Source of the DNA: Somniosus microcephalus
Lineage: Eukaryota
NCBI GenBank assembly: GCA_052327205.1
Contig: CM126209.1
Span: 205,964,001 to 206,028,000 of the forward strand
Length of the DNA stretch: 64,000 bases
Direction: 5' to 3'
Positions 44,482 to 64,000 of the stretch are shown here, piece by piece. Position numbers and translations under genes: made by a program. Each line of letters starts with the position of its first letter. Position 1 is the first letter of the stretch. The notes below the pieces were generated by a model, which saw only the letters and a list, made by a program, of their open reading frames with translations, made no database searches and was not told where the DNA came from.

Positions 44482-46813
44482 ACTAGGGCTGTAGAGAAGG
44501 CTTTAAACTAAATAGTGGAGTGGGGGGGGGCGGAGATCCAGATGAGCGGGAATTTAAGAAGTCAATGAGAAATGAGAAAACAACAGAGCAGGATAAAGAT
44601 GGGGAAAATAATAACCAGAGTGTGACACGAAGGGACAGAATGTTTAAAAATAAGAGTGCAACAGAAAATGGGGCCAAAACAAGGAGAAATGGTAAAAAGA
44701 CAAAGTTAAAAGCTCTACATCTGAATGCACGCAGCCATCGTAACAAGATAGATGAGTTGACGGCACAAATAGATACAAATGGGTATGATCTGATTGCCAT
44801 TACAGAGACATGGTTGCAAGGTGATCAGGGCTGGGAACTGAATATTCCAGGGTATCTGACAATTTGGAAGGATGGACAGAAAGGAAAGGGAGGTGGGATG
44901 GCTTTGTTGGTAAAGGATGGGATCAGTGCAGTGGTGAGAAGTGATATTGGATCAGAAGATCAAGATGTAGAATCCGTTTGGGTGGAGATAAAAAATAATA
45001 AAGTGAAAAAGTTTCTGGTGGGTATAGTCTACAGGCCCCCGAATAGTAGCAATACTGTTGGACAGAGTATAAATCAACAAAGAATGGAGGCCTGTAAAAA
45101 AGGTACGGTAATAATTGTGGGTGATTTTAATCTACATATTGATTGGACAAATCAAATTGGTCATGGTAGTCTTGAGGAGGAGTTCATAGAGTGCATCCGG
45201 GATGGTTTCCTAGAACAGTATATAATGGAACCAACCAGGGAGCAGGCTATCTTGGATCTGGTACTGTGTAATGAGACAGAATTAATAAATGATCTCATAG
45301 TAAAGGATCCTCTAGGAAAGAGTGATCATAGCATGGTTGAATTTCAAATTCAGTTGGAGGGTGAGAAAGTTGTATCTCAAACCAGTATCCTGATCTTAAA
45401 CAAAGGCAAGTACAATGAAATGAGGGCAGAACTGGCTAAAGTGGACTGGAAACATAAATTAAAGGGTAAGACAGTTGAGGAGATATTTCATAACTCTCAA
45501 CAAAAATATATTACAGTGAGAAAGAAAGATTTTAAGAGCACCATCCATGGCTAACTAAGGAAGTAAAGGATGGTATCAAATTAAGAATGAAGGCATACAA
45601 TGTTGTCAAGATTGGTGGGTGACCAAAGGATTGGAAAAAAAATTTAAAACAGCAAAGGATGACTAAAAAAATAAAAAAGAGAGAGAAGATGAATTATGAG
45701 AGAAAACTGACAAGAAACATTAAAACAGATAGAGCTTCTACAGGTATATAAAAAGGAAGAGAATAGCTAAAGTAAATGTTGGTCCCTTCGAGGATGAGAC
45801 TGGGGAATTAATAATGGAGAACGGGGAAATGGCAGAGACTCTGAACAAATATTTTGTATCTGTCTTCAGAGTAGAAGACACTAACAACATCCCAAAAATG
45901 GATAATCAAGGGGCCACAGGGAGGGGGGAACTAAAGACAATCATTATCACTAAGGAAATAGTACTTGGTAAAATAATGGGACTAAAAGACGACAAGTCCC
46001 CTGGACCAGATGGCCTGCACCCCAGGGTCTTAAAAGAAGTGGCTGCAGAGATAGTGGATGCATTGGTTGCAATATACCAAAATTCCCTGGACTCTGGAGA
46101 GGTCCCAGCGGATTGGAAAACCACAAATGTAACACACCTATTTTAAGAAAGGAGGGAGACAGAAAGCAGGAAACTATAGACCAGTTAGCCTAACATCTGT
46201 CATTGGGAAAATGCTGGGGTCCTTCATTAAGGAAGCAGTAGCAGGGCATTTGGAAAATCATAATGCAGTCAGGCAGAGTCAGCATGGTTTTATGAAAGGG
46301 AAATCATGTTTAACAAATTTGCTGGTGTTCTTTGAGGATGTAACGAATAGGGTGGACAAAGGTGAACCAGTATATGTGGTGTATTTGGATTTCCAGAAGG
46401 CATTTGATAAGGTGCCACATAAAAGGTTACTGCATAAGATAAGAGCTCATGGAATTGGGGGTAATATATTAGCATGGATAGAGAATTGGCTATTGAACAG
46501 AAAATAGAGAGTCAGGATAAATGGGTCATTTTCCAGTTGGCAAATGGTAACTAGTGGGGTGCCACAGGGATCGGTGCTGGGGCCTCAACTATTTACAATC
46601 TACATTAATAACTTGGATGAAGTGACTGAGTGTAATGTAGCCAAGTTTGTGGAAGATACAAAGATGGGTGGGAAAGCAAGTTGTGTAGAGGACTCAAAGA
46701 ATCTGCAAAGGGATATAGACAGGCTAAGTGAATGGGCAAACATTTGGCAGATGGAGTATAATGTGGGAAAGTGCGAGATTATCCACTTTTGCAGGAAAAA
46801 TAAAAAAGTAAAT
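44482..46813 (+). mobile_element. CR1 LINE copy D: ORF1 end plus decayed ORF2, 3' part missing
   Basis: APE ORF 44520-45554 and RT fragments to 46810. It ends abruptly at the LTR starting 46814 and does not resume after 48580. Confidence 0.92.
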
Positions 46814-48790: not shown

Positions 48791-50166
48791 TGTTGTGTAT
48801 GTACCTTTAAGAGAATAACTGGTCTCAGACTGCAGTACCGGCAGTGACCACCCCTGTATAAAAGGCGCTAGTAAGCCTCTGTAGTTTCAGTTTCCCGATT
48901 GACTCCTTTCAGTAAAGACTTGTTTTGTTCAACTCCTGCTGTCCGTGTCTCAATCATACATGGACATAATACTGGCGACGAGCAGATACGAACTTACCTA
49001 CAGTCTGCACCACCTCCTGGGATCCATTCCTGAAGCGAAGTGAGCAGAGGTCGAGGCCAGAAGGAAGAAAGAAGCAGTAGAAATGGGCATCGACCGTGGG
49101 CATCCACCCCTGTGTTAGCGGAGTTGAAGATTGCTGGAGAAGCTGTCGAAAGCGGGGCCTGGTACCTGTCGACGTTGCTTCAGCTAATCGGGCTGGTGGC
49201 AGGTAGCACACTGATCCTTCCTGGGCTGCGGCGGTCGCGAACTCGAGCGGGTTGCTTGCAACGGGGCCGAGCAGCATTGTCGGGAAGAGGAGAGAGAGAG
49301 GGTGGAGCACACAGGGCGCGGCCGGTGCTACGAAGCCGGGCTGCGTATAGACCCGAGAAGAGGGAGGCAAGAGTCCCACAGGGTTGTTCCACGACAGAAA
49401 ATTAATTAAAAAAAGAAATATTAAACGCGCAGGAAACTGCAAGGAGCTGCAGGTTGCAACGGAAACCGCGGAAAGCAGCGCTAGCAACAGCGGGGAAGAA
49501 GGCAAAGCGTGGGAGGCGCCATCTTAATCAGCGGGGAAGAAGGAAAAGCGTGGGAGGTGCCATTTAGTTAAATCGGGGAAGAAGGCAAAGCGCGGGAGGC
49601 GTCATTTTGATTTTCAAGATGCCGAAGACTGGCTGTATCACTGCCTTTGATAATACAATAGAGGACTGGACCACGTATGTGGAAAGTGTCGAGGTATATT
49701 GCGAGGCAAACGAAATAGCCGATGAGAAAAAGGCATCGGTATTGCTAAACTTAATGGGTGCTAGAACGTACGGCCTGTTGCGGGACCTGATTACTCCAGC
49801 CAAACCGAAGGCGAAGAGTTTTAACAAAATTGTTGCTGTCCTACAGGAACACCTAAACCCTGCACTGCTGTTGATAGCAGAAAGATTTAAATTCCACAGG
49901 AGAACTCAGCATAAAGATGAGAGCAATGCTGAGTACCTTACGGAACTACGCAAGCTATCAAAGTACTGCCAGTTCGGAGCAGGACTGACAGATACCCTAC
50001 GGGACAAATTTGTCTGTGGACTCCTGAGTGAAGGAACACAGAAACATAGAAACATAGAAACATAGAGATAGGAACAGGAGTAGGCCATTCGGCCCTTCGA
50101 GCCCGCTCCGCCATTCAATGAGATCATGGCTGATCTTCGTCTGAGATCATAGCTGATCTTACCAGT

Positions 50167-53076
50167 TCAGTACCCCGTCCCCGCCTTTTCTCCGTAACCC
50201 TTAATCCCCTTAGCCTTCAGAAATATATCCAATTCTCTCTTGAAAATATTTATTGAATTAGCCTTCGCAGCCCTCTGTGGCAGGGAATTCCACAGGCTCA
50301 CCACTCTTTGAGTGAAGAAATTCTTCCTCATCTCTGTTTTAAATGATTTGCCCGCTATTTTTAGACTGTGGCCCCTGGTTCTGTGCTCCCCGGCCATTGG
50401 AAACATTCTCTCTGAATTCAGCCTGTCCAGGCCTGCCATAATTTTATATGTTTCGATGAGATCCCCTCTCAATCTTCTAAACTCCAGTGAGTACAAGCCC
50501 AAACTATTTAATCTCTCTTCGTAGGTCATTCCCGCCATTACAGGTATCAGCCTGGTGAATCGCCGTTGCACTCTTTCCATGGCAAGAACATCCTTCCGCA
50601 GATGGGGCGACCAAAACTGTACACAATACTCCAGATGCGGTCTCACCAGCACCTTGTACAGCTGTGGTAAGGTATCCCTATTCCTATACTCGAACCCCCT
50701 TGATATGAAGGCCAACATACCATTTGCCTTCTTAATCGCCTGTTGCACCTGCATGCTCTCCTTCAGTGACTGGTGCACAAGAACACCCAGGTCCCTCTGC
50801 ACTTCCCCATCTCCCAATCTATTGCCATTTAGATAATAATCTACCCTCCTGTTTTTACCCCCAAAGTGGATAACCTCGCATTTATCCACATTATAGTGCA
50901 TCTGCCACGTATCCGCCCATTCCCCCAACCTGTCCAAATCGCACTGTAGCCTCCTGACATCCTCATCAGAGCCCACCCCTCCTCCTAGTTTAGTGTCGTC
51001 AGCGAATTTGGAAATATTGCATCCAATTCCCTGATCCAGATCATTTATATATATTGTGAACAGCTGGGGTCCCAGGACAGATCCTTGCGGCACCCCGCTG
51101 GTCACTGCCTGCCACTCCGAAAACGAGCCGTTTATTCCAACTCTCTGTTTTCTATCCGCCAGCCAGTTCTCTATCCACGTTAATACTTTGCCCCCAATCC
51201 CATGAGCCTTAATTTTGCATGATAATCTTTTGTGTGGAATCTTATCGAAGGCTTTCTGGAAGTCAAGGTACACCACATCCACTGGCTCTCCCCCATCTAT
51301 TTTACCAGTTACTTCCTCAAAAAATTCCAGCAGATTAGTCAAACACGATTTACCCTTTGTAAATCCATGTTGACTCTGTCCGATCCTTTCCCCATTTGTC
51401 AAGTGCTCCGCTATTTTATCCTTAATAATGGACTCTAGCATTCTGCCCACAACCGATGTAAGGCTTACTGGTCTATAATTCCCTGCTTTCTCTCTACCCC
51501 CCTTTTTAAATATTGGGGTAACATTAGCTACCCTCCAATCCACGGGTACTGTTCCCGAGTCAATGGAGTTCCGGAAGATGATCCTTAGAGCATCTGCTAT
51601 CTCCAGGGCCACCTCCTTAAGTACCCTAGGATGTAGTTTATCAGGCCCCGGGGATTTGTCGGCCTTCAGTCCCCTCAACTTACCCAGCACCATATCCCTA
51701 GAGATACTAATTTCTGTCAGCTCCTCCCTCTCATTAGTCCCTATGTTTGCCGATATTCCTGGGAGGTTATTTGTGTCCTCCTTTGTGAATACAGAACCAA
51801 AGTATGAGTTTAATTGGTCTGCCATTTCCTTATTCTCCATTATATATTCTCCCGAATCGGACTGCAAGGGACCGACTTGGGATTTTACCAGTCTTTTCCT
51901 CCTGATATACCGATAAAAGCTTTTGCAGTCTGTCTTTATGTTTGCTGCAAGTTTACTTTCGTATTCTATTTTCCCCTTCCTGATTAATCCCTTTGTCCTC
52001 TTTTGCTGTATCTTGTACTGCCCCCAATCTTCCGGTCTGGTGCTTTTTTTTGCCAGTTGATATGCCCTTTTTTTTGATTTTATGCTGTCCCTAATTTCCC
52101 TCGTTATCCACGGTTGAGTCACCTTTTTAGGTTTATTTTTGTGCCAAACCGGTATAAACATGTTCTGGAATTCTTCCATTCTATCTTTGAATGCTTGCCA
52201 TTGTCTATCCACTGTCAATCCCCCCAGAAACACCACCCAATCAATCTTACCCAATTCCCGTCTCATACCCTCGTAATTCCCTTTATTTAAGTTCTGGACC
52301 TTAGTCTCTGATTCAATTTCCTCACTCTCCATCTCGACTGAGAGCTCGATCATATTATGATCGCTCTGACCCAAGGGGCCTCGTACAAGAAGATTGCTGA
52401 TAAGTCCCTTCTCATTGCACAATACCCAGTCTAAAATGGCCTGATCTCGAGTCGGCTCCTCGACATATTGGTCCAGATAACCGTCCCGAAAACATTCCAG
52501 GAATTCCTCCTCCTCAGAATTTTTACTAGTTTGGGTAGTCCAATCAATATGTAAATTAAAGTCACCCATGATGACAGCTGTGCTCTTATCGCACGCTTCT
52601 CTAATTTCCCTTTTTATGCCTTCCCTCACCTCCATATTACTATTTGGAGGCCTATATATCACACCCACTAACGTTTTCCTCCCCTTGCTATTTCTCATTT
52701 CTACCCATACAGATTCCGTTTCATCCGAGATAATATCCTTCCTTTCCATTGCATTAATCCCCTCCTTTACCAGCAATGCTACCCCACCTCCCCTACCTTT
52801 TTGCCGATCCTTCCTAAATATTGTATATCCCTGGATGTTAAGTTCCCAGCCTTGCCCACCCTGCAGCCACGTTTCTGTAATCCCAATCAAATCATACTTG
52901 TTTACCTCTATTTCCACAACTAATTCATCCACCTTGTTCCTAATGCTTCTAGCATTAAGATACAAAGCCTTCAGGCTTGCTTTTTTCACACTCTCATTAT
53001 GAATTAGTTTGGCCCTTTGTGTTTCTCTCCTTTGCTTATTGCTTCTCACCTTTCTACCATCTATTTCTGACTTCAT
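50167..53076 (-). CDS. CR1 ORF2 (APE endonuclease + reverse transcriptase), 969 aa, uninterrupted
   Basis: YLNARSIRNK, GITETW, GDFN, SDHN, YLDFQKAFD, GVPQGSVLGP and FADD are all in one frame. Confidence 0.93.
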   Translation of the reverse strand: MKSEIDGRKVRSNKQRRETQRAKLIHNESVKKASLKALYLNARSIRNKVDELVVEIEVNKYDLIGITETWLQGGQGWELNIQGYTIFRKDRQKGRGGGVALLVKEGINAMERKDIISDETESVWVEMRNSKGRKTLVGVIYRPPNSNMEVREGIKREIREACDKSTAVIMGDFNLHIDWTTQTSKNSEEEEFLECFRDGYLDQYVEEPTRDQAILDWVLCNEKGLISNLLVRGPLGQSDHNMIELSVEMESEEIESETKVQNLNKGNYEGMRRELGKIDWVVFLGGLTVDRQWQAFKDRMEEFQNMFIPVWHKNKPKKVTQPWITREIRDSIKSKKRAYQLAKKSTRPEDWGQYKIQQKRTKGLIRKGKIEYESKLAANIKTDCKSFYRYIRRKRLVKSQVGPLQSDSGEYIMENKEMADQLNSYFGSVFTKEDTNNLPGISANIGTNEREELTEISISRDMVLGKLRGLKADKSPGPDKLHPRVLKEVALEIADALRIIFRNSIDSGTVPVDWRVANVTPIFKKGGREKAGNYRPVSLTSVVGRMLESIIKDKIAEHLTNGERIGQSQHGFTKGKSCLTNLLEFFEEVTGKIDGGEPVDVVYLDFQKAFDKIPHKRLSCKIKAHGIGGKVLTWIENWLADRKQRVGINGSFSEWQAVTSGVPQGSVLGPQLFTIYINDLDQGIGCNISKFADDTKLGGGVGSDEDVRRLQCDLDRLGEWADTWQMHYNVDKCEVIHFGGKNRRVDYYLNGNRLGDGEVQRDLGVLVHQSLKESMQVQQAIKKANGMLAFISRGFEYRNRDTLPQLYKVLVRPHLEYCVQFWSPHLRKDVLAMERVQRRFTRLIPVMAGMTYEERLNSLGLYSLEFRRLRGDLIETYKIMAGLDRLNSERMFPMAGEHRTRGHSLKIAGKSFKTEMRKNFFTQRVVSLWNSLPQRAAKANSINIFKRELDIFLKAKGIKGYGEKAGTGY

Positions 53077-53123
53077 ATGACTTCCCTCTTTTCCACTACC
53101 TAGGTTCCCATCCCCCTGCCAAA

Positions 53124-53280
53124 TTAGTTTAAATCCTCCCGAACCGCCCTAGAAAATATTACCCCGAGGACATCGGCTCCCTCACAGTTCAGGTGTAGAC
53201 CGTCCCCTTGGTACAGGTCACTCCTCCCCAGGAACTGGTTCCAATGCCTCAAGAATTTAAATCCCTCTCCCTTGCACCTT
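53124..53280 (-). pseudogene. CR1 ORF1 C-terminal fragment (SGNH esterase-like domain)
   Basis: Manual translation RCKGEGFKFLRHWNQFLGRSDLYQGDGLHLNCEGADVLGVIFSRAVREDLN*, with the DGLH block-V motif. Confidence 0.8.
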
Positions 53281-53959
53281 AACAGAAGAAGTTAACTCTC
53301 AGAGAAAGAGCTGACGCTAGATAAGGCTTTCAGCGTGGCAGTATCGTACGAAGCAGCAGCCAGGGGAGCTGCAGAAATACAACAAAAGCCACAGGAATAC
53401 GGCACCCACGAAATGACACGGGGATTTGCAAAATGTTATCGCTGCGGCAGAACTAACCATGACCAGAATGACTGCTGGTCCAAGGACAAAATATGCAGGC
53501 AATGCGGAAAGATGGGACACATTGCACGAGTTTGCAGGTCTGGGAAGAAGACCAGCGACAACAAAAAGGCTACTAAGGAACCGTACAAGAAAGTACAAAA
53601 GATGACGGACAGTAGTTCCGAAGACCAGATGAGCGATAGTGAATCCGGGAACGGGAGACTAAGCTGTCTCAAACTTCACAATGTAATCACAAAAGAGGAT
53701 CACCGAACCATTTGGGTCGCCCTCACGGTAGCAGGGTCCCAAGTTAAAATGGAATTGGATACAGGATCAGCGCTAACCGTCATGAATCGACGAGACTACG
53801 AGCGGCTATTCTCACACATACACTTGAGAGAGACATCCATCGTCTTGACGACGTATATGGGGCAAAAAGTATACCCCAGAGGAAAAATAAGGGTGCCTGT
53901 CGAATTCAACGGCAAGAAAATACGGAAATTGTATCTCTACATTCTGCAAAATGGTGGAC

Positions 53960-56900
53960 TGTGGCGGATCGCCACCTAAACGGGCGCAATCCACTTTTCC
54001 GTCCGTGGACAATAAATCGGGCACCTCGCCTTTAAGAAGCATGCTGCCTTTAAGGCATGACAAAGGAGCGGGCGTCGTCCTCAGTGTGTACTCAAAAGTG
54101 CGGGTGTCGCCCTCAGGCTGTTTTCGGGTTTAGCAGAGAGAGGAGCTGGGGCAGCCATCTCTCAAGAGAATGTAATAAAAGCCATGTGTTCCTCAGATCG
54201 GTTCGGCCTCCATTCGTGTTCCGCGGCAGCCGCAACATTGGTGACCCCGACGCTCAGAACGTATTCCGAGCACTGCAATGGCGGACACGAACGCAGTTTC
54301 CGTGAAACTGCCGGAGTTTTGGGAAAACCAGCCCGAAGCCTGGTTCCTCCAAGCTGAGCCCCAATTCCGGCTGCGACACATCACCACAGATGGGACGAAT
54401 ATTGACTACCTCGTCGCATCACTTGGTATCTCCACAGTCACGAAGGTCTGGATAGCGCTGCAGAACTCAGCAGAGGAGGGCAAGTATGCACATCTTAAGG
54501 CCGCGCTCCTTAAAAAATTTACGACCTCGACATACCAGCGAAACTGCCGCCTCCTCGACCTTCCAGGCCTCGGTGACGCCTCACCGTCAGACCTCCTCTC
54601 CCACATGCTCTCACTCACCGACGAGAGCCCACCCGGGTCCCTCTTCCGCACGCTGTTCATCCGCCAGCTACCTCCCAGCATCCGTCCAGCGATCGTGGCG
54701 TCCGGCCTCACGGACCTAGAAGCCCTGGCCGACGAGGCCGACAAGCTGCTGTCCACTCACTCCAGCCACAACGTCGCTCCGGACCTGGCAGCCACAGCCT
54801 GGGCGCGCCCCTCACCGGCCACCACACGGCCACAAGGCATTGCCACGGGGCCCACGGGGCCTTCGCGCCCTACAGACCCGGGCTACTGTTACTACCACGC
54901 ACGGTTCGGCACCAGGGCACAACGGTGCACACCTCCCTGCTCCTTCAAGTCCGCCCCCGTACCAGCCCCCGCGATGGCCGTGGGCCACGCGGGCTACCTG
55001 CTGTACGTCACGGATGACAAAACCGGCCGCCGGTTCCTGTGCGACACTGGAGCTCAGCACAGCATCATCCCGGCCTCCGCCCTCGACATCCAAAAGGGCG
55101 AATGAGGACAGGCGCTGGCTGCCGCTAACGGCTCGGACATCCGGACGTATGGCACCCGCACAGTCACCCTCGACCTCGCTGGTCGCCGCTACCGATGGGA
55201 GTTCATCACTGCCAAGGTACTCTCCCCTCTCATCGGCGCAGACTTCCTGTGCGCCCACGGCCTACTGGTAGACATCCCTCGACACCGCCTCGTGGACATG
55301 AACACCATGTCTCCCATCCTGGGCGCCATGGCCCCCCGTCAACCCGCCGACATGGCGTCACAGTGCCACGCCCGGGCCACGGATGACTACTCGGCACTGC
55401 TGGCCGAATTCCCGGCCCTCACCAACCCGACCTTCTCCGCGGAGGTCGCCAAACACGGGGTGGAACACTTCATCCCCACCACAGGCCCACCAGTGTACGC
55501 CCACGCCCGCAGGCTGGACCCGGCCAAACTGGAGGTCGCGCGCACCGAGTTTGCCACGATGGAACAGCTCGGCATCATCCGCCGCTCCAACAGTCCCTGG
55601 GCCTCCCCACTCCACATCGCCCCCAAACCAGGCGGGGGTTGGCACCCCTGCGGGGATTACCGCCGCCTCAACGATGCCACCACCCCTGATCGGTACCCCG
55701 TGCCGCACATTCAGGACTTCTCGGCTAGACTGGCCGGCCGCTCAGTCTTTTCCAAAGTTGACCTGGTGCGCGGCTACCACCAAGTCCCCGTCCACCCCGC
55801 GGACGTCCCCAAGACAGCCGTAATCACCCCCTTCGGGCTTTTCGAGTTCCTGCGGATGCCCTTCGGCCTCAAAAATGCGGCCCAGGCATTCCAACAGCTC
55901 ATGGACTCGGTCCTTCGGGACCTGAAGTTCCTGTTCGTCTACCTGGACGGCATCCTGGTAGCCAGTTCCTCCAAGCAGGAACACCTCGAACACCTCGCAT
56001 CCTGTTCGGGTGCCTCAGCGACCACGGGCTCATCCTCAGCCCAGCCAAGTGCCAGTTCGGCCTGGACAAGATCGACTTCCTCGGCCACCACATCACCCAT
56101 GCTGGGGCCATTCCCCTGCCCACCAAGGTGCAGGCCGTCCAGCAATTTCCCTGCCCCACCACCATCAAAGGACTCCAGGAGTTCCTCGGGATGGTGAATT
56201 TCTACAACCGCTTCATCCCCAAAGCGGCATCCCTCATGAAGCCCCTGTATGAAGCCCTCCAGGGCAGGAGCGGCAAGATGGCGGTCGAATGGACGGCAGA
56301 CGTATCAGCCGCCTTCAACTCCACCAAGACCGCGCTCACCGACGCCACCCTGCTCGCGCAGCCACGGCCCAATGCCAGAGTAGCTCTCAACACGGACGCC
56401 TCCGACCACGCGGTCGGCGCCGTGTACGAGCAGTGGGTCGACGGCGCCTGGCAACCACTTGCCTTCTTCAGCCGCCAACTACGCCCCCCGGAGGACAAGT
56501 ACAGCACCTTCGACCGCGAGCTCCTCGCGCTGTACCTGGCGGTCCGCCATTTTCGGTTTTTGCTGGAGGGCCACCCCTTCACTGCGTTTGTCGACCACAA
56601 ACCCCTGACATTCGCAATGGCAAAGACAACCGACCCCTGGTCCGCCAGGCAGCAGCGCCAGCTCGCGGCAGTGTCCGAGTTCACCACGGACATCCAACAC
56701 GTCTCCGGCCGAGACAACGTGGTAGCCGACTGCCTCTCCCACCCCGCCATCCACGCCGCACACCTGGCAGTCGACTACACTCAACTCGCAGCAGACCAGC
56801 TCACGGACCCTAATCTGCTCTCCGCACCTACCAACCTACCAGGGCTACGCCTGGCCGACGTCGCCTGCGGCCCGACCGCAGTCACGGTCAAGTGCGACAT

Positions 56901-58387
56901 ATCCCTATCTCAACCTCGGCCCGTCGTCCCAGCGTCCTGGCGCCGCCGGGTATTCGAGATTCTCCACAACCTCTCCCACCCCGGCGCCCGCGCATCCATC
57001 AAATTGGTAGCCAACCGCTTTGTCTGGCGCGGCCTTCGCAAGGATGTGCGTACTTGGGCCAACTCCTGCCTAGCCTGCCAACGGGCCAAGGTGCAGCAAC
57101 ACACGAAAGCACCCCTCGAGGAGTTCACCATCCCTTCACGTAGATTCGACCACATCCACGTGGACATCGTCAGGCCCCTGCCGCCGTCGCAAGGCCACAC
57201 GCACTTGCTGACGATCGTCGACCGCACTACGCGCTGGCCCGAGGCAATTCCACTGACCTCTACCACCACCGCCGACATCGCCAGGGCCTTCGTCAGCACC
57301 TGGATCACACGGTTCGGCGTCCCCTCCGACATGACGTCGGACAGAGCTCCGCAATTTACCTCTGAACTCTGGACCGCCATCGCACGCAATCTCGGGGTGA
57401 CCATTCACCGCACCACAGCGTACCACCCCCAAGCCAACGGACTGTGTGAGCGGTTCCACAGATCCTTGAAGGCATCTCTTCGAGCCAGCCTCCAGGACGG
57501 CACCTGGACCGACCGACTCCCGTGGGTCCTCCTCGGCCTGCGCTCCGCGGTTAAAGAAGACCTCCACGCATCGGCAGCAGAGGTCGTGTACGGCCAGCCG
57601 CTGCGCGTACCCGGCGAGTTCCTGCCCACCGCCACGACACCCTGGTCAGCCGACCAGCAACGCCACGACTTCGCCTCACCGGCGCTACAGTGCACCCCGG
57701 TGCCCATTGCCCGGCACGGCGAATCCACCTCACACGTCCCGCTAAGCCTGCACCAGGCATGGTTCGTTTTCGTCCGGCACGATGCCCACCACGGACCCCT
57801 TCAACCCCCGTACGACGGGCCCTACAAGATGCTACAGGCTGGGGACAAATTTTTCGACCTACAAGTGGGCGACAGGACTGAAAAAGTGTCGGTTGACCGA
57901 CTCAAGCCAGCACACTCGGAGCCCGGTGAGCAGGTCCCAGTAGCTCGTCCACCGCCACGCAGCCGACCTGCCCTCAAGCCAGTACACCCGGCTGCTCCAC
58001 GGCCGGCCGTTCCACGTCCACCGGCGTCCTACAAGAGCCGTTCCGGCCGGCCCATCAGACCGCCGCACCGTCTCGTCCACACCTCCTAAGCGGATTCTGG
58101 GGGGAGCTGTGTGGCGGATCGCCACCTAAACGGGCGCAATCAACTTTTCCGTCCGTGGACAATAAATTGGGCACCTCGCCTTTAAGAAGCATGCTGCCTT
58201 TAAGGCATGACAAAGGAGCGGGCGTCGTCCTCAGTGTGTACTCAAAAGCGCGGGTGTCGCCCTCAGGCTGTTTTCGGGTTTAGCAGAGAGAGGAGCTGGG
58301 GCAGCCATCTCTCAAGAGAATGTAATAAAAGCCATGTGTTCCTCAGATCGGTTCGGCCTCCATTCGTGTTCCGCGGCAGCTGCAACA
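53960..58387 (+). mobile_element. Full-length CsRN1-type Ty3/Gypsy nested in copy 3
   Basis: 278-bp LTRs at 53960-54237 and 58110-58387 (4 mismatches), TSD GGAC, tRNA-Trp PBS TGGTGACCCCGACG at 54239-54252, PPT TCTGGGGGGAG. Confidence 0.95.
54278..58089 (+). pseudogene. gag-pol: Single-ORF gag-pol (CHCC gag motif, PR, RT, RH, INT) with one stop, one frameshift and a YLDG active site
   Basis: VKLPEFW..PEAWF, CYYHARFG..AQRC..PC and LCDTGA are present. TGA at 55103-55105 is in frame with 55292, and there is a frameshift near 55995. The integrase ORF 56128-58089 ends with a GPY motif. Confidence 0.92.
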
Positions 58388-61540: not shown

Positions 61541-64000
61541 TGGTAACCATGAAACTATTGGATTGTCATTAAAAACCCATCTGGTTCACTAATGTCCTTT
61601 AGGGAAGGAAATCTGCCGGCCTTACCTGGTCTGGCCTATATGTGACTCCAGACCGACAGCAATGTGTTTGAATGTTAACTGCCCTCTGAAATGGCCTAGC
61701 AAGTCACTCAGTTGTATAAAACCGCTACGAAAAACAACAAGAATAAAACCGGATGGGCCACCCGACATCGAATTCGGCACCGGCTACAGAGACAGCAACG
61801 GCACACCCAGCCCAGTCAACCCTGCAAAGTCCTCCTCACTAACATCTGGGGACTTGTGCCAAAATTGGGAGAGTTGTCCCACAGACGAATCAAGCAACAG
61901 CCTAACATAGTCATACTCACAGAATCATACCTTTCAGCCAACATCCCAAACTCCACCATCACCATCTCTGGGTATGTCCAGTCCCACGGGCTGGACAGAC
62001 CCACCAGGGGTGAGGGCACAGTGGTATACAGTCGGGAAGGAGTGGCCCTGGGAGTCCTCAACATTGACCCATGAAGTCTCATGGCTTCAGGTCAAGCATG
62101 GGCAAAGAAACCTCCTGCTGATTGCCACCTACTGCCCTCCCTCAGCTGATGAATCAGTACTCCTCCATGTTGAACATCATTTGGAAGAAGCACTGAGAGT
62201 AGCAAGGGCACAGAATGTACTCTGGGTGAGGGACTTCAATGTCCATCACCAAGATTGGCTCGGTAGCACCACTACTGACTGAGCTGGCCGAGTCCTGAAG
62301 GACATAACTGCCAGTCTGGGCCTGCGACAGGTGGTGAGAGAACCAACACGAGGGAAAAACCTGCTTGACCTCATCCTCACCAAACTACCTGTCGCAGATG
62401 CATCTGTCCATGACAGCATTGGTAGCAGTGTCCACCGCACAGTCATTGTGGAGACGAAGTCCCATCTTCACACTGAGGACAACCTCCATCGTGTTGTGTG
62501 GCACTTCCACCGTGCTAATTGGGATAGATTCAGAACAGATCAAGCAGCTCAAAACTGGGCATCCATGAGTCGCTGTGGGCCATCAGCAGCAGCAGAATTG
62601 TATTCCACCACAATCTGTAACCTCATGGCCCGGCATATCTCTCATTCTACCATTGCCATCAAACCAGGGAACCAACCCTGGTTCAATAAAGAGTGTAGAA
62701 GCGCATGCCAGGAGCAGCACCAGGCGTACCTAAAAATGAGGTGCCAATTTGGGGAAGCTGCAACACAGGACTACCGGCATGCTAAAACGTGGAAGCAGCA
62801 TGTTGTAGATAGGGCTAAGCGATCCCACAATTAATGGATCAGATCAAAGCTCTGCAGTCCTGCCACATCCAGTCGTGAATGGTGGTGGACCATTAAACAA
62901 CTAACAGGAGGAGGAGGCTCCATGAATATCCCCATCCTCAATGATGGTGGAGCCCAGCACGTGAGTGCAAAAGACAAGGCTGAAGCATTTGCAACCATCT
63001 TCAGCCAGAAGTGCCAAGTGGATGTTCCATATTGGCCTATTCCTGAGGACCCCACCATCACAGAAGCCAGTCTTCAGCCAATTCGATTCACTCCACGTGA
63101 TATCAAGTAACGGCTGAGCGCACTGGATACAGCAAAGGCTACGCGCCCCGACAACATCCTGGCTATGGGGCTGAAGACCTGTGCTCCAGAACTAGCTGTG
63201 CCTCTTGCCAAGCTGTTCCAGTACAGCTACAACACTGGCATCTACCCGACAATGTGGAGAACTGCCCAGGTATGCCCTGTCCACAAAAAGCAGGACAAAT
63301 CCAACCCAGCCAATTACAGCCCCATCAGTCTAGTCTCAATCATTATCAAAGTGATGGAAGGTGTCATCGACAGTGCTATCAAGCGGCACTTATTCACCAA
63401 TAGCCTGCTCATGGATGCCCAGTTTGGGTTCTGCCAAGATCACTCGGCTCCTGACCTCATTACAACCTTGGTCCAAACATGGACAAAGGAGCTGAATTTC
63501 AGAAGTGAGGTGAGAGTGACTGCCCTTGACATCAAAGCAGCATTTGACCGAGTGTGGCATCAAGGAGCCCTAGTAAAATTGAAGTCAATGGGAATCGGGG
63601 GGAAAACTCTCCACTGGCTGGAGTCATACCTAGTACAAAGAAAGATGGTTGTGGTGGTTGAAGGTCAATCATCACAGCCCCAGGACATCGCGGCAGGAGT
63701 TCCTCAGGGCAGTGTCCTAGGCCCAACCATCCTCAGCTGTTTCATCAATGATCTTCCCTCCAACATAAGGTCAGAAATGGGGATGTTCACTGATGACTGC
63801 AGTGTTCAGCGCCATTCACAACTCCTCAGATAATGAAGCAGTCCATGCCCGGATGCAACAAGACCTGGACGATGTTCAGGCTTGGGCTGATAAGTGGCAG
63901 GTAACATTCGTGCCACAGAAGTGCCAGGCAATGACCATCTACAACAAGCGAGAGTCTAACCACCTCCCCTTGACATTCAATCGTATTACCATCACTGAAT
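61541..64000 (+). mobile_element. Single-ORF CR1-group LINE (APE-RT), decayed, running off the window
   Basis: TNIWGL..K, ILTES, DFN, PTRGKNLLDLILT, ALDIKAAFDRVWH, GVPQGSVLGP and FTDD occur across broken ORFs 61712-63833. There is no ORF1 between the SINE-like leader and the APE domain. Confidence 0.88.

What the first reader, a model, noticed from the sequence alone, without database searches (positions are those of the whole stretch)
53076..53140. Candidate -1 programmed ribosomal frameshift (U_UUA_AAC) fusing CR1 ORF1 to ORF2
Seen: on the minus strand ORF1 of CR1 copy C ends GAG GAT TTA AAC TAA. The heptamer T_TTA_AAC (53133-53127) is in exact X_XXY_YYZ register immediately before the stop. 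A -1 slip gives F-K-L-I-W-Q-G-D-G-N-L-G-S-G-K-E-G-S-H-M..., with no stop, in frame with the 969-aa ORF2. A G-rich tract (GGCAGGGGGATGGGAACCTAGG) begins 6 nt after the heptamer, where stimulators sit. Established: UUUAAAC is the coronavirus ORF1a/1b slippery site, G-quadruplexes and hairpins can stimulate -1 PRF, and studied LINEs (L1, SART1) make ORF2 by re-initiation or coupling instead. Inference: these CR1s may express an esterase-APE-RT fusion in gag-pol style. I cannot tell from here whether this is already reported.
Basis: partly seen in the sequence, partly recalled or inferred. Interest (0 to 1): 0.85.

Follow-up and report, generated by a model that had tools for sequence, protein, structure and literature searches.

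The report
Slippery frameshift site in CR1 retrotransposons
A very common vertebrate jumping gene (CR1) ends its first gene with the same seven-letter slippery sequence in sharks, reptiles and other animals, and some of its families have no start codon ahead of the second gene's catalytic residues, so ribosomes likely make the copying enzyme by slipping back one base, as retroviruses and coronaviruses do.

Summary
Observation confirmed. T_TTA_AAC (53133-53127) precedes the ORF1 stop, and its -1 frame runs open for 988 codons through endonuclease and reverse transcriptase. The window copy is 5'-truncated, so the evidence comes from relatives. The heptamer is exact in 154 of 165 searched junctions and 14 of 18 ORF1 ends in 1 Mb of random genome. 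Across 19 lineages the last Leu and Asn are the only single-codon columns of 29 conserved ones. One distant element uses G_GGA_AAC; protein ends (GN, KN) suggest other slippery variants. One young subfamily with intact ORF2 has its first Met at codon 178, beyond catalytic residues under purifying selection. A G-run follows the site in 20 of 21 lineages, but I found no conserved hairpin or long-range partner, so the stimulator is unproven. Best reading: programmed -1 frameshifting makes an ORF1-ORF2 fusion (0.85); not measured. Ten paper searches found no report for CR1; several older CR1 papers were unreadable, and a -1 frameshift is stated for Dictyostelium TRE5-A/TRE3-A. The scan noted the same idea on another genome (e1-8041403).

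The parts
50044..53278 (-). 5'-truncated CR1 LINE copy of a young, abundant subfamily, inserted in a Gypsy gag gene
   Evidence: (13 other copies at 99-100% from query base 12-13 on)
53124..53278 (-). 3' remnant of ORF1 (end of SGNH esterase domain, ending L-N-stop)
   Evidence: the full 312-aa ORF1 of a sister copy (L004) matches Pfam Lipase_GDSL_2
53127..53133 (-). slippery heptamer T_TTA_AAC (X_XXY_YYZ) in register
53124..53126 (-). ORF1 stop codon directly after the heptamer
   Evidence: TAA in 162 of 165 shark junctions, TAG/TGA in other animals
53099..53120 (-). G-rich tract, core G5 run at 53116-53112; candidate 3' stimulator (role inferred)
52962..53126 (-). stop-free, basic linker in the -1 frame, near-neutral at protein level, holding a non-conserved ATG at 53076
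50167..53133 (-). ORF2 frame (-1): APE endonuclease plus reverse transcriptase, 988 codons from the heptamer
50044..50166 (-). 3' UTR ending in 8-nt tandem repeats, no poly(A)
44502..44511 (+). same heptamer plus stop in a second, divergent CR1 subfamily copy, ORF2 again in the -1 frame

Best explanation
CR1 LINEs with an esterase ORF1 likely make their endonuclease-reverse transcriptase by programmed -1 ribosomal frameshifting at the conserved slippery heptamer that ends ORF1, which would give an ORF1-ORF2 fusion. Shown: heptamer in register, adjacent stop, ORF2 always one base back and open, no conserved AUG, a conserved G-run 8-13 nt downstream. Inferred: most ribosomes stop and release ORF1p (312 aa in this subfamily); a minority slip with tRNA-Leu and tRNA-Asn on U_UUA_AAC and read through a flexible basic linker of 37-88 codons into APE and RT, giving about 1,298 aa here. 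No protease domain was found, so the fusion would stay uncut and could co-assemble with ORF1p, fixing the ORF1p:RT ratio as gag/gag-pol does. The pause is most likely supplied by the G-run (a two-tier quadruplex or a protein-binding site) together with the stop codon; this step is the weakest.
For: (1) Heptamer exact in 154 of 165 searched junctions and in 14 of 18 ORF1 ends in 1 Mb of random stretches, all 18 within one mismatch. (2) Of 29 conserved degenerate ORF1 columns over 19 lineages, only the last two use one codon (TTA 17/17, AAC 18/18); five other Leu columns use 3-5 codons. (3) The residue before L-N lacks a T-ending codon in only 1 of 94 proteins, against 12% background, p=1e-4. 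(4) Other heptamers occur: DNA of L061 has G_GGA_AAC and L058 G_TTA_AAC, both with a long open -1 frame into APE. Among 111 distant ORF1 representatives, 62 end in a slippery-compatible dipeptide (LN 45, GN 10, KN 3); without LN 17 of 66 against 7.9%, p=1e-5; 28 of the other 49 have a compatible tripeptide at the domain end against 104 of 637 control windows. U_UUA_AAC, G_GGA_AAC and A_AAA_AAC are three of four named among the shiftiest heptamers for mammalian ribosomes (PMC5009743). (5) Subfamily L157: intact 971-975-codon ORF2, first Met at codon 178 in 15 of 21 open copies (73-162 in the rest), after the N, E and YRPP motifs; dN/dS 0.08-0.23 upstream of that Met. L232 first Met 129-139 or none; L059 none before the motif. 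(6) 0 stops in 997 linker codons in the -1 frame against 69 and 121. (7) Published consensus sequences of coelacanth, crocodilians, frog, bowfin, a teleost, chimaera, rays, sharks and a lizard carry it at the ORF1 end (PMC13343379 supplement). (8) Two L2-like loci instead have an ATG overlapping the ORF1 end (L093, L099).
Against: No frameshift or fusion protein was measured. No stable local hairpin (z +1.3 to -2.3 in 21 lineages) and a quadruplex predicted in only 10 of 21, not in the window's subfamily. No conserved long-range partner of the G-run. 13 of 17 lineage representatives do have an in-frame AUG ahead of the APE motif, so reinitiation could run alongside. 21 of 111 distant ORF1 ends show no compatible motif, and the GN/KN/FF cases rest on protein letters except for L061. 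Lineages are related, so counts are not independent events. L1 is described as making ORF2 independently of its AUG (PMC5009743), so lack of an AUG alone does not prove a frameshift. PMC3708506 argues that ORF1 products need to be separate from ORF2p.
Confidence: 0.85

Rival explanations
1. ORF2 is made by termination and reinitiation, at a nearby AUG or AUG-independently as described for L1; the heptamer and G-run would act as a termination/reinitiation signal.
For: The stop always abuts the motif in vertebrate copies. 13 of 17 representatives have an in-frame AUG before the APE motif. Precedents: SART1 UAAUG coupling (PMC2699510) and L1 (PMC5009743).
Against: It does not predict an X_XXY_YYZ pattern with changing X and Y, a fixed -1 register, or a stop-free frame between stop and AUG. 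No stop-start overlap in the junctions. AUG position varies from codon 4 to 178. In the KN group the motif stays at the domain end while the stop lies further on.
Confidence: 0.08
2. L-N is kept for ORF1 protein function, or the motif is another RNA/DNA signal (splice or branch site, internal promoter, packaging), and ORF2 comes from a separate or spliced transcript.
For: L and N are invariant in alignment A1 (rows were chosen for reaching the C-terminus). The motif contains branch-point-like or acceptor-like letters in some lineages (my reading, recalled consensus).
Against: Protein constraint cannot fix codons or the base before them. The stop is TAA, TAG or TGA, so an AG acceptor is not kept. 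In two RNA runs covering the junction bins at roughly 200-730 reads, no joint, indel or pile of starts was listed at the junction at a 3% threshold (mixed copies, 7 start/end rows hidden).
Confidence: 0.04
3. The frame is restored at RNA or DNA level: polymerase slippage at homopolymer runs beside the site yields in-frame ORF1-ORF2 templates, or rare fused copies supply ORF2p in trans to AUG-less subfamilies.
For: Six of 42 copies in subfamilies L157/L168 have one extra base in a poly-G run before the heptamer, and four have 1,286-codon fused frames.
Against: Run lengths +2, +6 and +7 also occur, as expected from homopolymer instability; the search favoured long frames; most lineages have no such run yet keep the heptamer; no indel listed at the junction in RNA reads.
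Confidence: 0.03

Closest known systems
Retroviral gag-pol and coronavirus ORF1a/1b -1 programmed frameshifting
   Same: X_XXY_YYZ heptamer in register at the end of the upstream ORF, polymerase in the -1 frame; U_UUA_AAC is the IBV site (PMC5009743 passages).
   Different: Non-LTR element; no protease domain found; no pseudoknot or stable stem-loop found, a G-run instead; upstream protein is a zinc-finger/esterase, not Gag.
Dictyostelium TRE5-A and TRE3-A (APE-type non-LTR elements)
   Same: A review legend states that both need a -1 frameshift for ORF2 (PMC5911963).
   Different: Another lineage, unrelated ORF1, amoebae; I saw no shift site, conservation analysis or assay in the passages read.
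SART1 and L1 ORF2 translation
   Same: Bicistronic LINE RNA, low-level ORF2 expression.
   Different: SART1 uses UAAUG stop-start coupling; L1 uses an unknown AUG-independent initiation; both give a separate ORF2p.
Canonical CR1 with esterase ORF1 (PMC13343379; CR1 subgroup 7 of PMC4120745)
   Same: Esterase ORF1, APE-RT ORF2, tandem-repeat tail.
   Different: Described as two ORFs; term searches for frameshift and overlap gave 0 hits in both main texts.

Membership tests
-1 programmed ribosomal frameshift (tandem slippage) | X_XXY_YYZ heptamer in the upstream reading frame | tested here: met
-1 programmed ribosomal frameshift (tandem slippage) | downstream ORF in the -1 frame, open from the shift site, not dependent on its own AUG | tested here: met
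-1 programmed ribosomal frameshift (tandem slippage) | site conserved at nucleotide level beyond protein need | tested here: met
   alternative heptamer in L061
-1 programmed ribosomal frameshift (tandem slippage) | 3' stimulator 5-9 nt downstream (pseudoknot, stem-loop, quadruplex or protein site) | tested here: inconclusive
   G-run conserved in 20 of 21 lineages, GGG in 29 of 42 Gly codons against 147 of 458; no stable hairpin, quadruplex predicted in 10 of 21, no long-range partner; pseudoknots not modelled
-1 programmed ribosomal frameshift (tandem slippage) | measured frameshifting or transframe protein | not testable with these tools
   needs reporter, ribosome profiling or mass spectrometry
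CR1 LINE with esterase ORF1 | SGNH esterase ORF1 | tested here: met
   Pfam PF13472 E 5.5e-13 on sister copy L004
CR1 LINE with esterase ORF1 | APE plus RT in ORF2; tandem-repeat 3' end without poly(A) | tested here: met
CR1 LINE with esterase ORF1 | RT phylogeny inside the CR1 clade | not tested
   no tree built; the junction resembles consensus sequences labelled CR1 in the PMC13343379 supplement
Stop-start coupled translation (SART1 type) | AUG overlapping or abutting the ORF1 stop | tested here: not met
   nearest in-frame AUG at codon 4-178 or absent; overlap seen only in L2-like L093/L099
L1-type AUG-independent reinitiation | separate ORF2p that depends on ORF1 termination | not testable with these tools
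   needs experiment

The most novel reading that the evidence does not exclude
Probability: 0.35. Interest if true: 0.92.

Novelty: new variant of a known kind. Interest (0 to 1): 0.8.

Why it matters
How LINEs translate ORF2 is an open question (PMC3708506, PMC5009743 passages). CR1 is the dominant retrotransposon group in most vertebrates (PMC13343379 abstract). A gag-pol-style frameshift would redefine the CR1 enzyme as an ORF1-ORF2 fusion, change how intact, potentially active CR1 copies are called (AUG-less ORF2s would not be broken), guide CR1 retrotransposition constructs, and offer a large natural series of frameshift cassettes with a possibly new G-run stimulator. It is testable with one reporter.

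Tried and rejected
Local hairpin: z-scores unremarkable. Long-range pairing of the G-run: best partners differ between subfamilies; a 9-bp match about 1,450 nt downstream is confined to two sister subfamilies. Fused 1,286-codon copies as support: rejected, explained by poly-G length changes and search bias. Prokaryote genome scan gave only weak hits (E 5e-8 or worse) to apparent bacterial hydrolases, not examined further; viral scans gave one weak hit and none. Run search: no RNA holder listed; the raw-read lay shows transcripts of mixed copies on both strands and says nothing on translation. Cluster look-up named no organism for the GN/KN proteins, so 'invertebrate' for them and for L058/L059/L061, and 'bird-like' for L060-L086, are my inferences from likeness. 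Supplement of PMC4316615: file 2 gave unrelated matches, file 1 was not searched. Not held: Kojima 2005, Kapitonov and Jurka 2003, Alisch 2006. Haas 1997 and Kajikawa 1997 on chicken and turtle CR1 (recalled) were not looked up.

Full report
1. The observation. The minus strand reads GAG GAT TTA AAC TAA, with the heptamer T_TTA_AAC at 53133-53127, the G-rich tract from 53120 and the first -1-frame ATG at 53076. The -1 frame runs 988 codons through APE and RT. The copy is 5'-truncated at about 53278 and lies inside a Gypsy gag gene, so only about 50 ORF1 codons remain; full-length sister copies have a 312-aa zinc-finger-like/esterase ORF1. By chance 35 of 5649 stop triplets in the window follow such a heptamer. 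A second, divergent CR1 in the window has the same heptamer and stop at 44502. The genome is 6.45 Gb, and the best named protein hits are from sharks and rays.

2. Conservation in this genome. Six searches gave 157 loci. With 20 random stretches these gave 165 ORF1 ends, located by a profile that omits the last 12 residues and then anchored on the best motif match within 50 nt: 154 have the exact heptamer and 162 have TAA. Four of the queries included the terminal L-N, so I also took 100 arbitrary 10-kb stretches. These held 18 ORF1 ends: 14 exact, 18 within one mismatch; 15 lie 28-29 nt from the profile end, and three sit further on behind long G-runs, two of which I read by eye. The copies fall into 10 clusters of three or more plus 7 singletons, and most copies per cluster have the APE motif in the -1 frame and open: 42/43, 18/21, 21/22, 18/19, 14/19, 8/11, 8/10, 2/3, 2/3, 2/2.

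3. Nucleotide, not protein, constraint. I aligned 143 esterase domains from 19 lineages (11 shark, 8 from metagenome records; copies with broken frames were dropped) and counted the commonest codon per lineage. Of 29 conserved degenerate columns only the last two are single-codon: TTA 17/17 and AAC 18/18. Five other Leu columns use 3-5 codons and another Asn column splits 14:5. The first base of the heptamer is the third base of a variable codon; among 94 proteins ending in L-N only 1 has a preceding residue without a T-ending codon, against 12% background. The lineages are related, but the control columns share the same tree.

4. Other animals. Forty of 47 homologues with a locatable C-terminus end in L-N, including named sharks, rays and turtles. 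Of 57 metagenome loci, eight showed the ORF1 end in frame with a heptamer and stop: six T_TTA_AAC, one G_TTA_AAC (L058) and one G_GGA_AAC (L061); three more were found by pattern. Two L2-like loci have an ATG overlapping the ORF1 end instead; the rest were truncated, broken or unrelated. In the supplement of PMC13343379, 17 of 23 matches to TTTAAACTA lie at a CR1-type ORF1 end by my reading of the rows shown (coelacanth, crocodilians, frog, bowfin, a teleost, chimaera, rays, sharks); 6 are elsewhere; a lizard row has the TGA form. That list is pattern-selected and has no denominator. A profile search of 50%-identity representatives gave 142 new proteins, 111 with a locatable end: 62 end in a slippery-compatible dipeptide (LN 45, GN 10, KN 3, four others); without LN, 17 of 66 against 7.9%. 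Of the other 49, 28 have a compatible tripeptide at the domain end, many of them K-N followed by a variable tail, against 104 of 637 control windows; 21 have none. The Phe/Leu-type matches could reflect helix composition. LN, GN and KN correspond to U_UUA_AAC, G_GGA_AAC and A_AAA_AAC, named among the shiftiest heptamers in PMC5009743. Codons were seen only for L061.

5. No usable AUG. Across 17 lineage representatives (picked among open copies) the linker to the APE motif is 37-88 codons, with 0 stops in the -1 frame against 69 and 121 in the others; the first Met lies at codon 4 to 178 or is absent. In subfamily L157, copies with complete 971-975-codon ORF2 have their first Met at 178, directly before G-D-F-N and after the N, E and YRPP motifs (catalytic roles of these motifs are recalled from L1 endonuclease). 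The APE stretch upstream of that Met has dN/dS 0.08-0.23 against sister lineages, and 0.13 on fixed differences (4 synonymous, 2 non-synonymous; small numbers). The linker is near neutral, 0.6-1.1. So this stretch is translated without an AUG, or was until recently. Against this, 13 of 17 representatives do have an AUG ahead of the motif.

6. The stimulator. A run of four or more G starts 8-13 nt after the heptamer in 20 of 21 lineages, and its G4Hunter score is in the top 4% of ORF2 windows in all 21. In random copies the run is 88-100% conserved while the spacer before it is 38-88%. Gly codons there are GGG in 29 of 42 against 147 of 458 elsewhere, pointing to an RNA-level signal. But no stable hairpin is predicted, a two-tier quadruplex appears in only 10 of 21 and not in the window's subfamily, and no long-range partner is shared. 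Its function is inferred from position.

7. RNA. Two raw RNA runs with the same species label as close DNA holders cover the junction; no joint or indel was listed there at 3%. These reads mix many copies and strands, so this only fails to support splicing.

8. Mechanism and rivals. Tandem -1 slippage explains the register, the fixed codons, the change of heptamer type, the open linker and the dispensable AUG together; I give it 0.85. The junction would read L-N-L-I-W and the fusion would be about 1,298 aa in this subfamily (312 + 986). Reinitiation (0.08), another signal with a separate transcript (0.04) and template-level slippage (0.03) each explain only part. Four natural in-frame fusions come from an unstable poly-G run and are not counted as support.

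9. Literature. Ten searches found no paper proposing a frameshift for CR1. Seen as term-search passages only: PMC11835228 (first 300,000 characters; frameshift passages concern ALV), PMC5009743 (first 300,000 of 449,034 characters; 0 hits for CR1), PMC7175516, PMC2699510, PMC5911963, PMC5006619, PMC13343379 (61, 70, and supplement rows 66, 69, 83), PMC3905857, PMC4120745, PMC3708506, PMC4316615 (supplement file 2 only). PMC5911963 states a -1 frameshift for TRE5-A and TRE3-A, so the principle is not new for non-LTR elements. The 1990s-2000s CR1 papers, Repbase/Dfam notes and bioRxiv supplements were out of reach and may mention it.

10. Verdict. Real feature, strongly conserved, most likely a -1 programmed frameshift; a new variant of a known kind; interest 0.8.

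Noticed in passing
window 49568-50065 and 53296-53979 (+): A Gypsy gag gene is split by the CR1 insertion; a second, GC-rich Gypsy-type element follows at about 54245-58089. The window is a nest of Gypsy and CR1 elements.
   Followed up: partly
L093:1677-1700; L099 near 735: L2-like esterase elements have an ATG overlapping the last ORF1 codons, suggesting stop-start coupling in the sister clade, a natural contrast to the CR1 frameshift.
   Followed up: partly
L158, L171, L173, L177 (also L235, L248): One extra base in a poly-G run before the heptamer puts ORF1 and ORF2 in one frame (1,286 codons in four copies).
   Followed up: yes
window 9094 (-) and about 44477 (+): Two other CR1 copies in the window are 5'-truncated within about 25 nt of the junction; whether truncations cluster at the G-run was not tested.
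   Followed up: no
loci L232-L256 versus L015 and L168 clusters: One subfamily joins an L157/L168-like ORF1 end to an L015-like ORF2 start, suggesting recombination at the junction.
   Followed up: no
proteins P0062, P0063, P0071, P0073, P0013: CR1 ORF1 pieces appear in annotated host gene isoforms (ray TMEM204, ABHD14A-like) and in a protein labelled Pseudomonas, probably annotation artefacts or contamination.
   Followed up: no
L004:1-716: The 5' UTR of the young subfamily has tandem repeats and donor-like motifs just upstream of ORF1; no joints were listed there in the raw RNA reads beyond the repeats.
   Followed up: partly
window 62283-63833 (+): A different APE-RT LINE lineage, not examined.
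   Followed up: no
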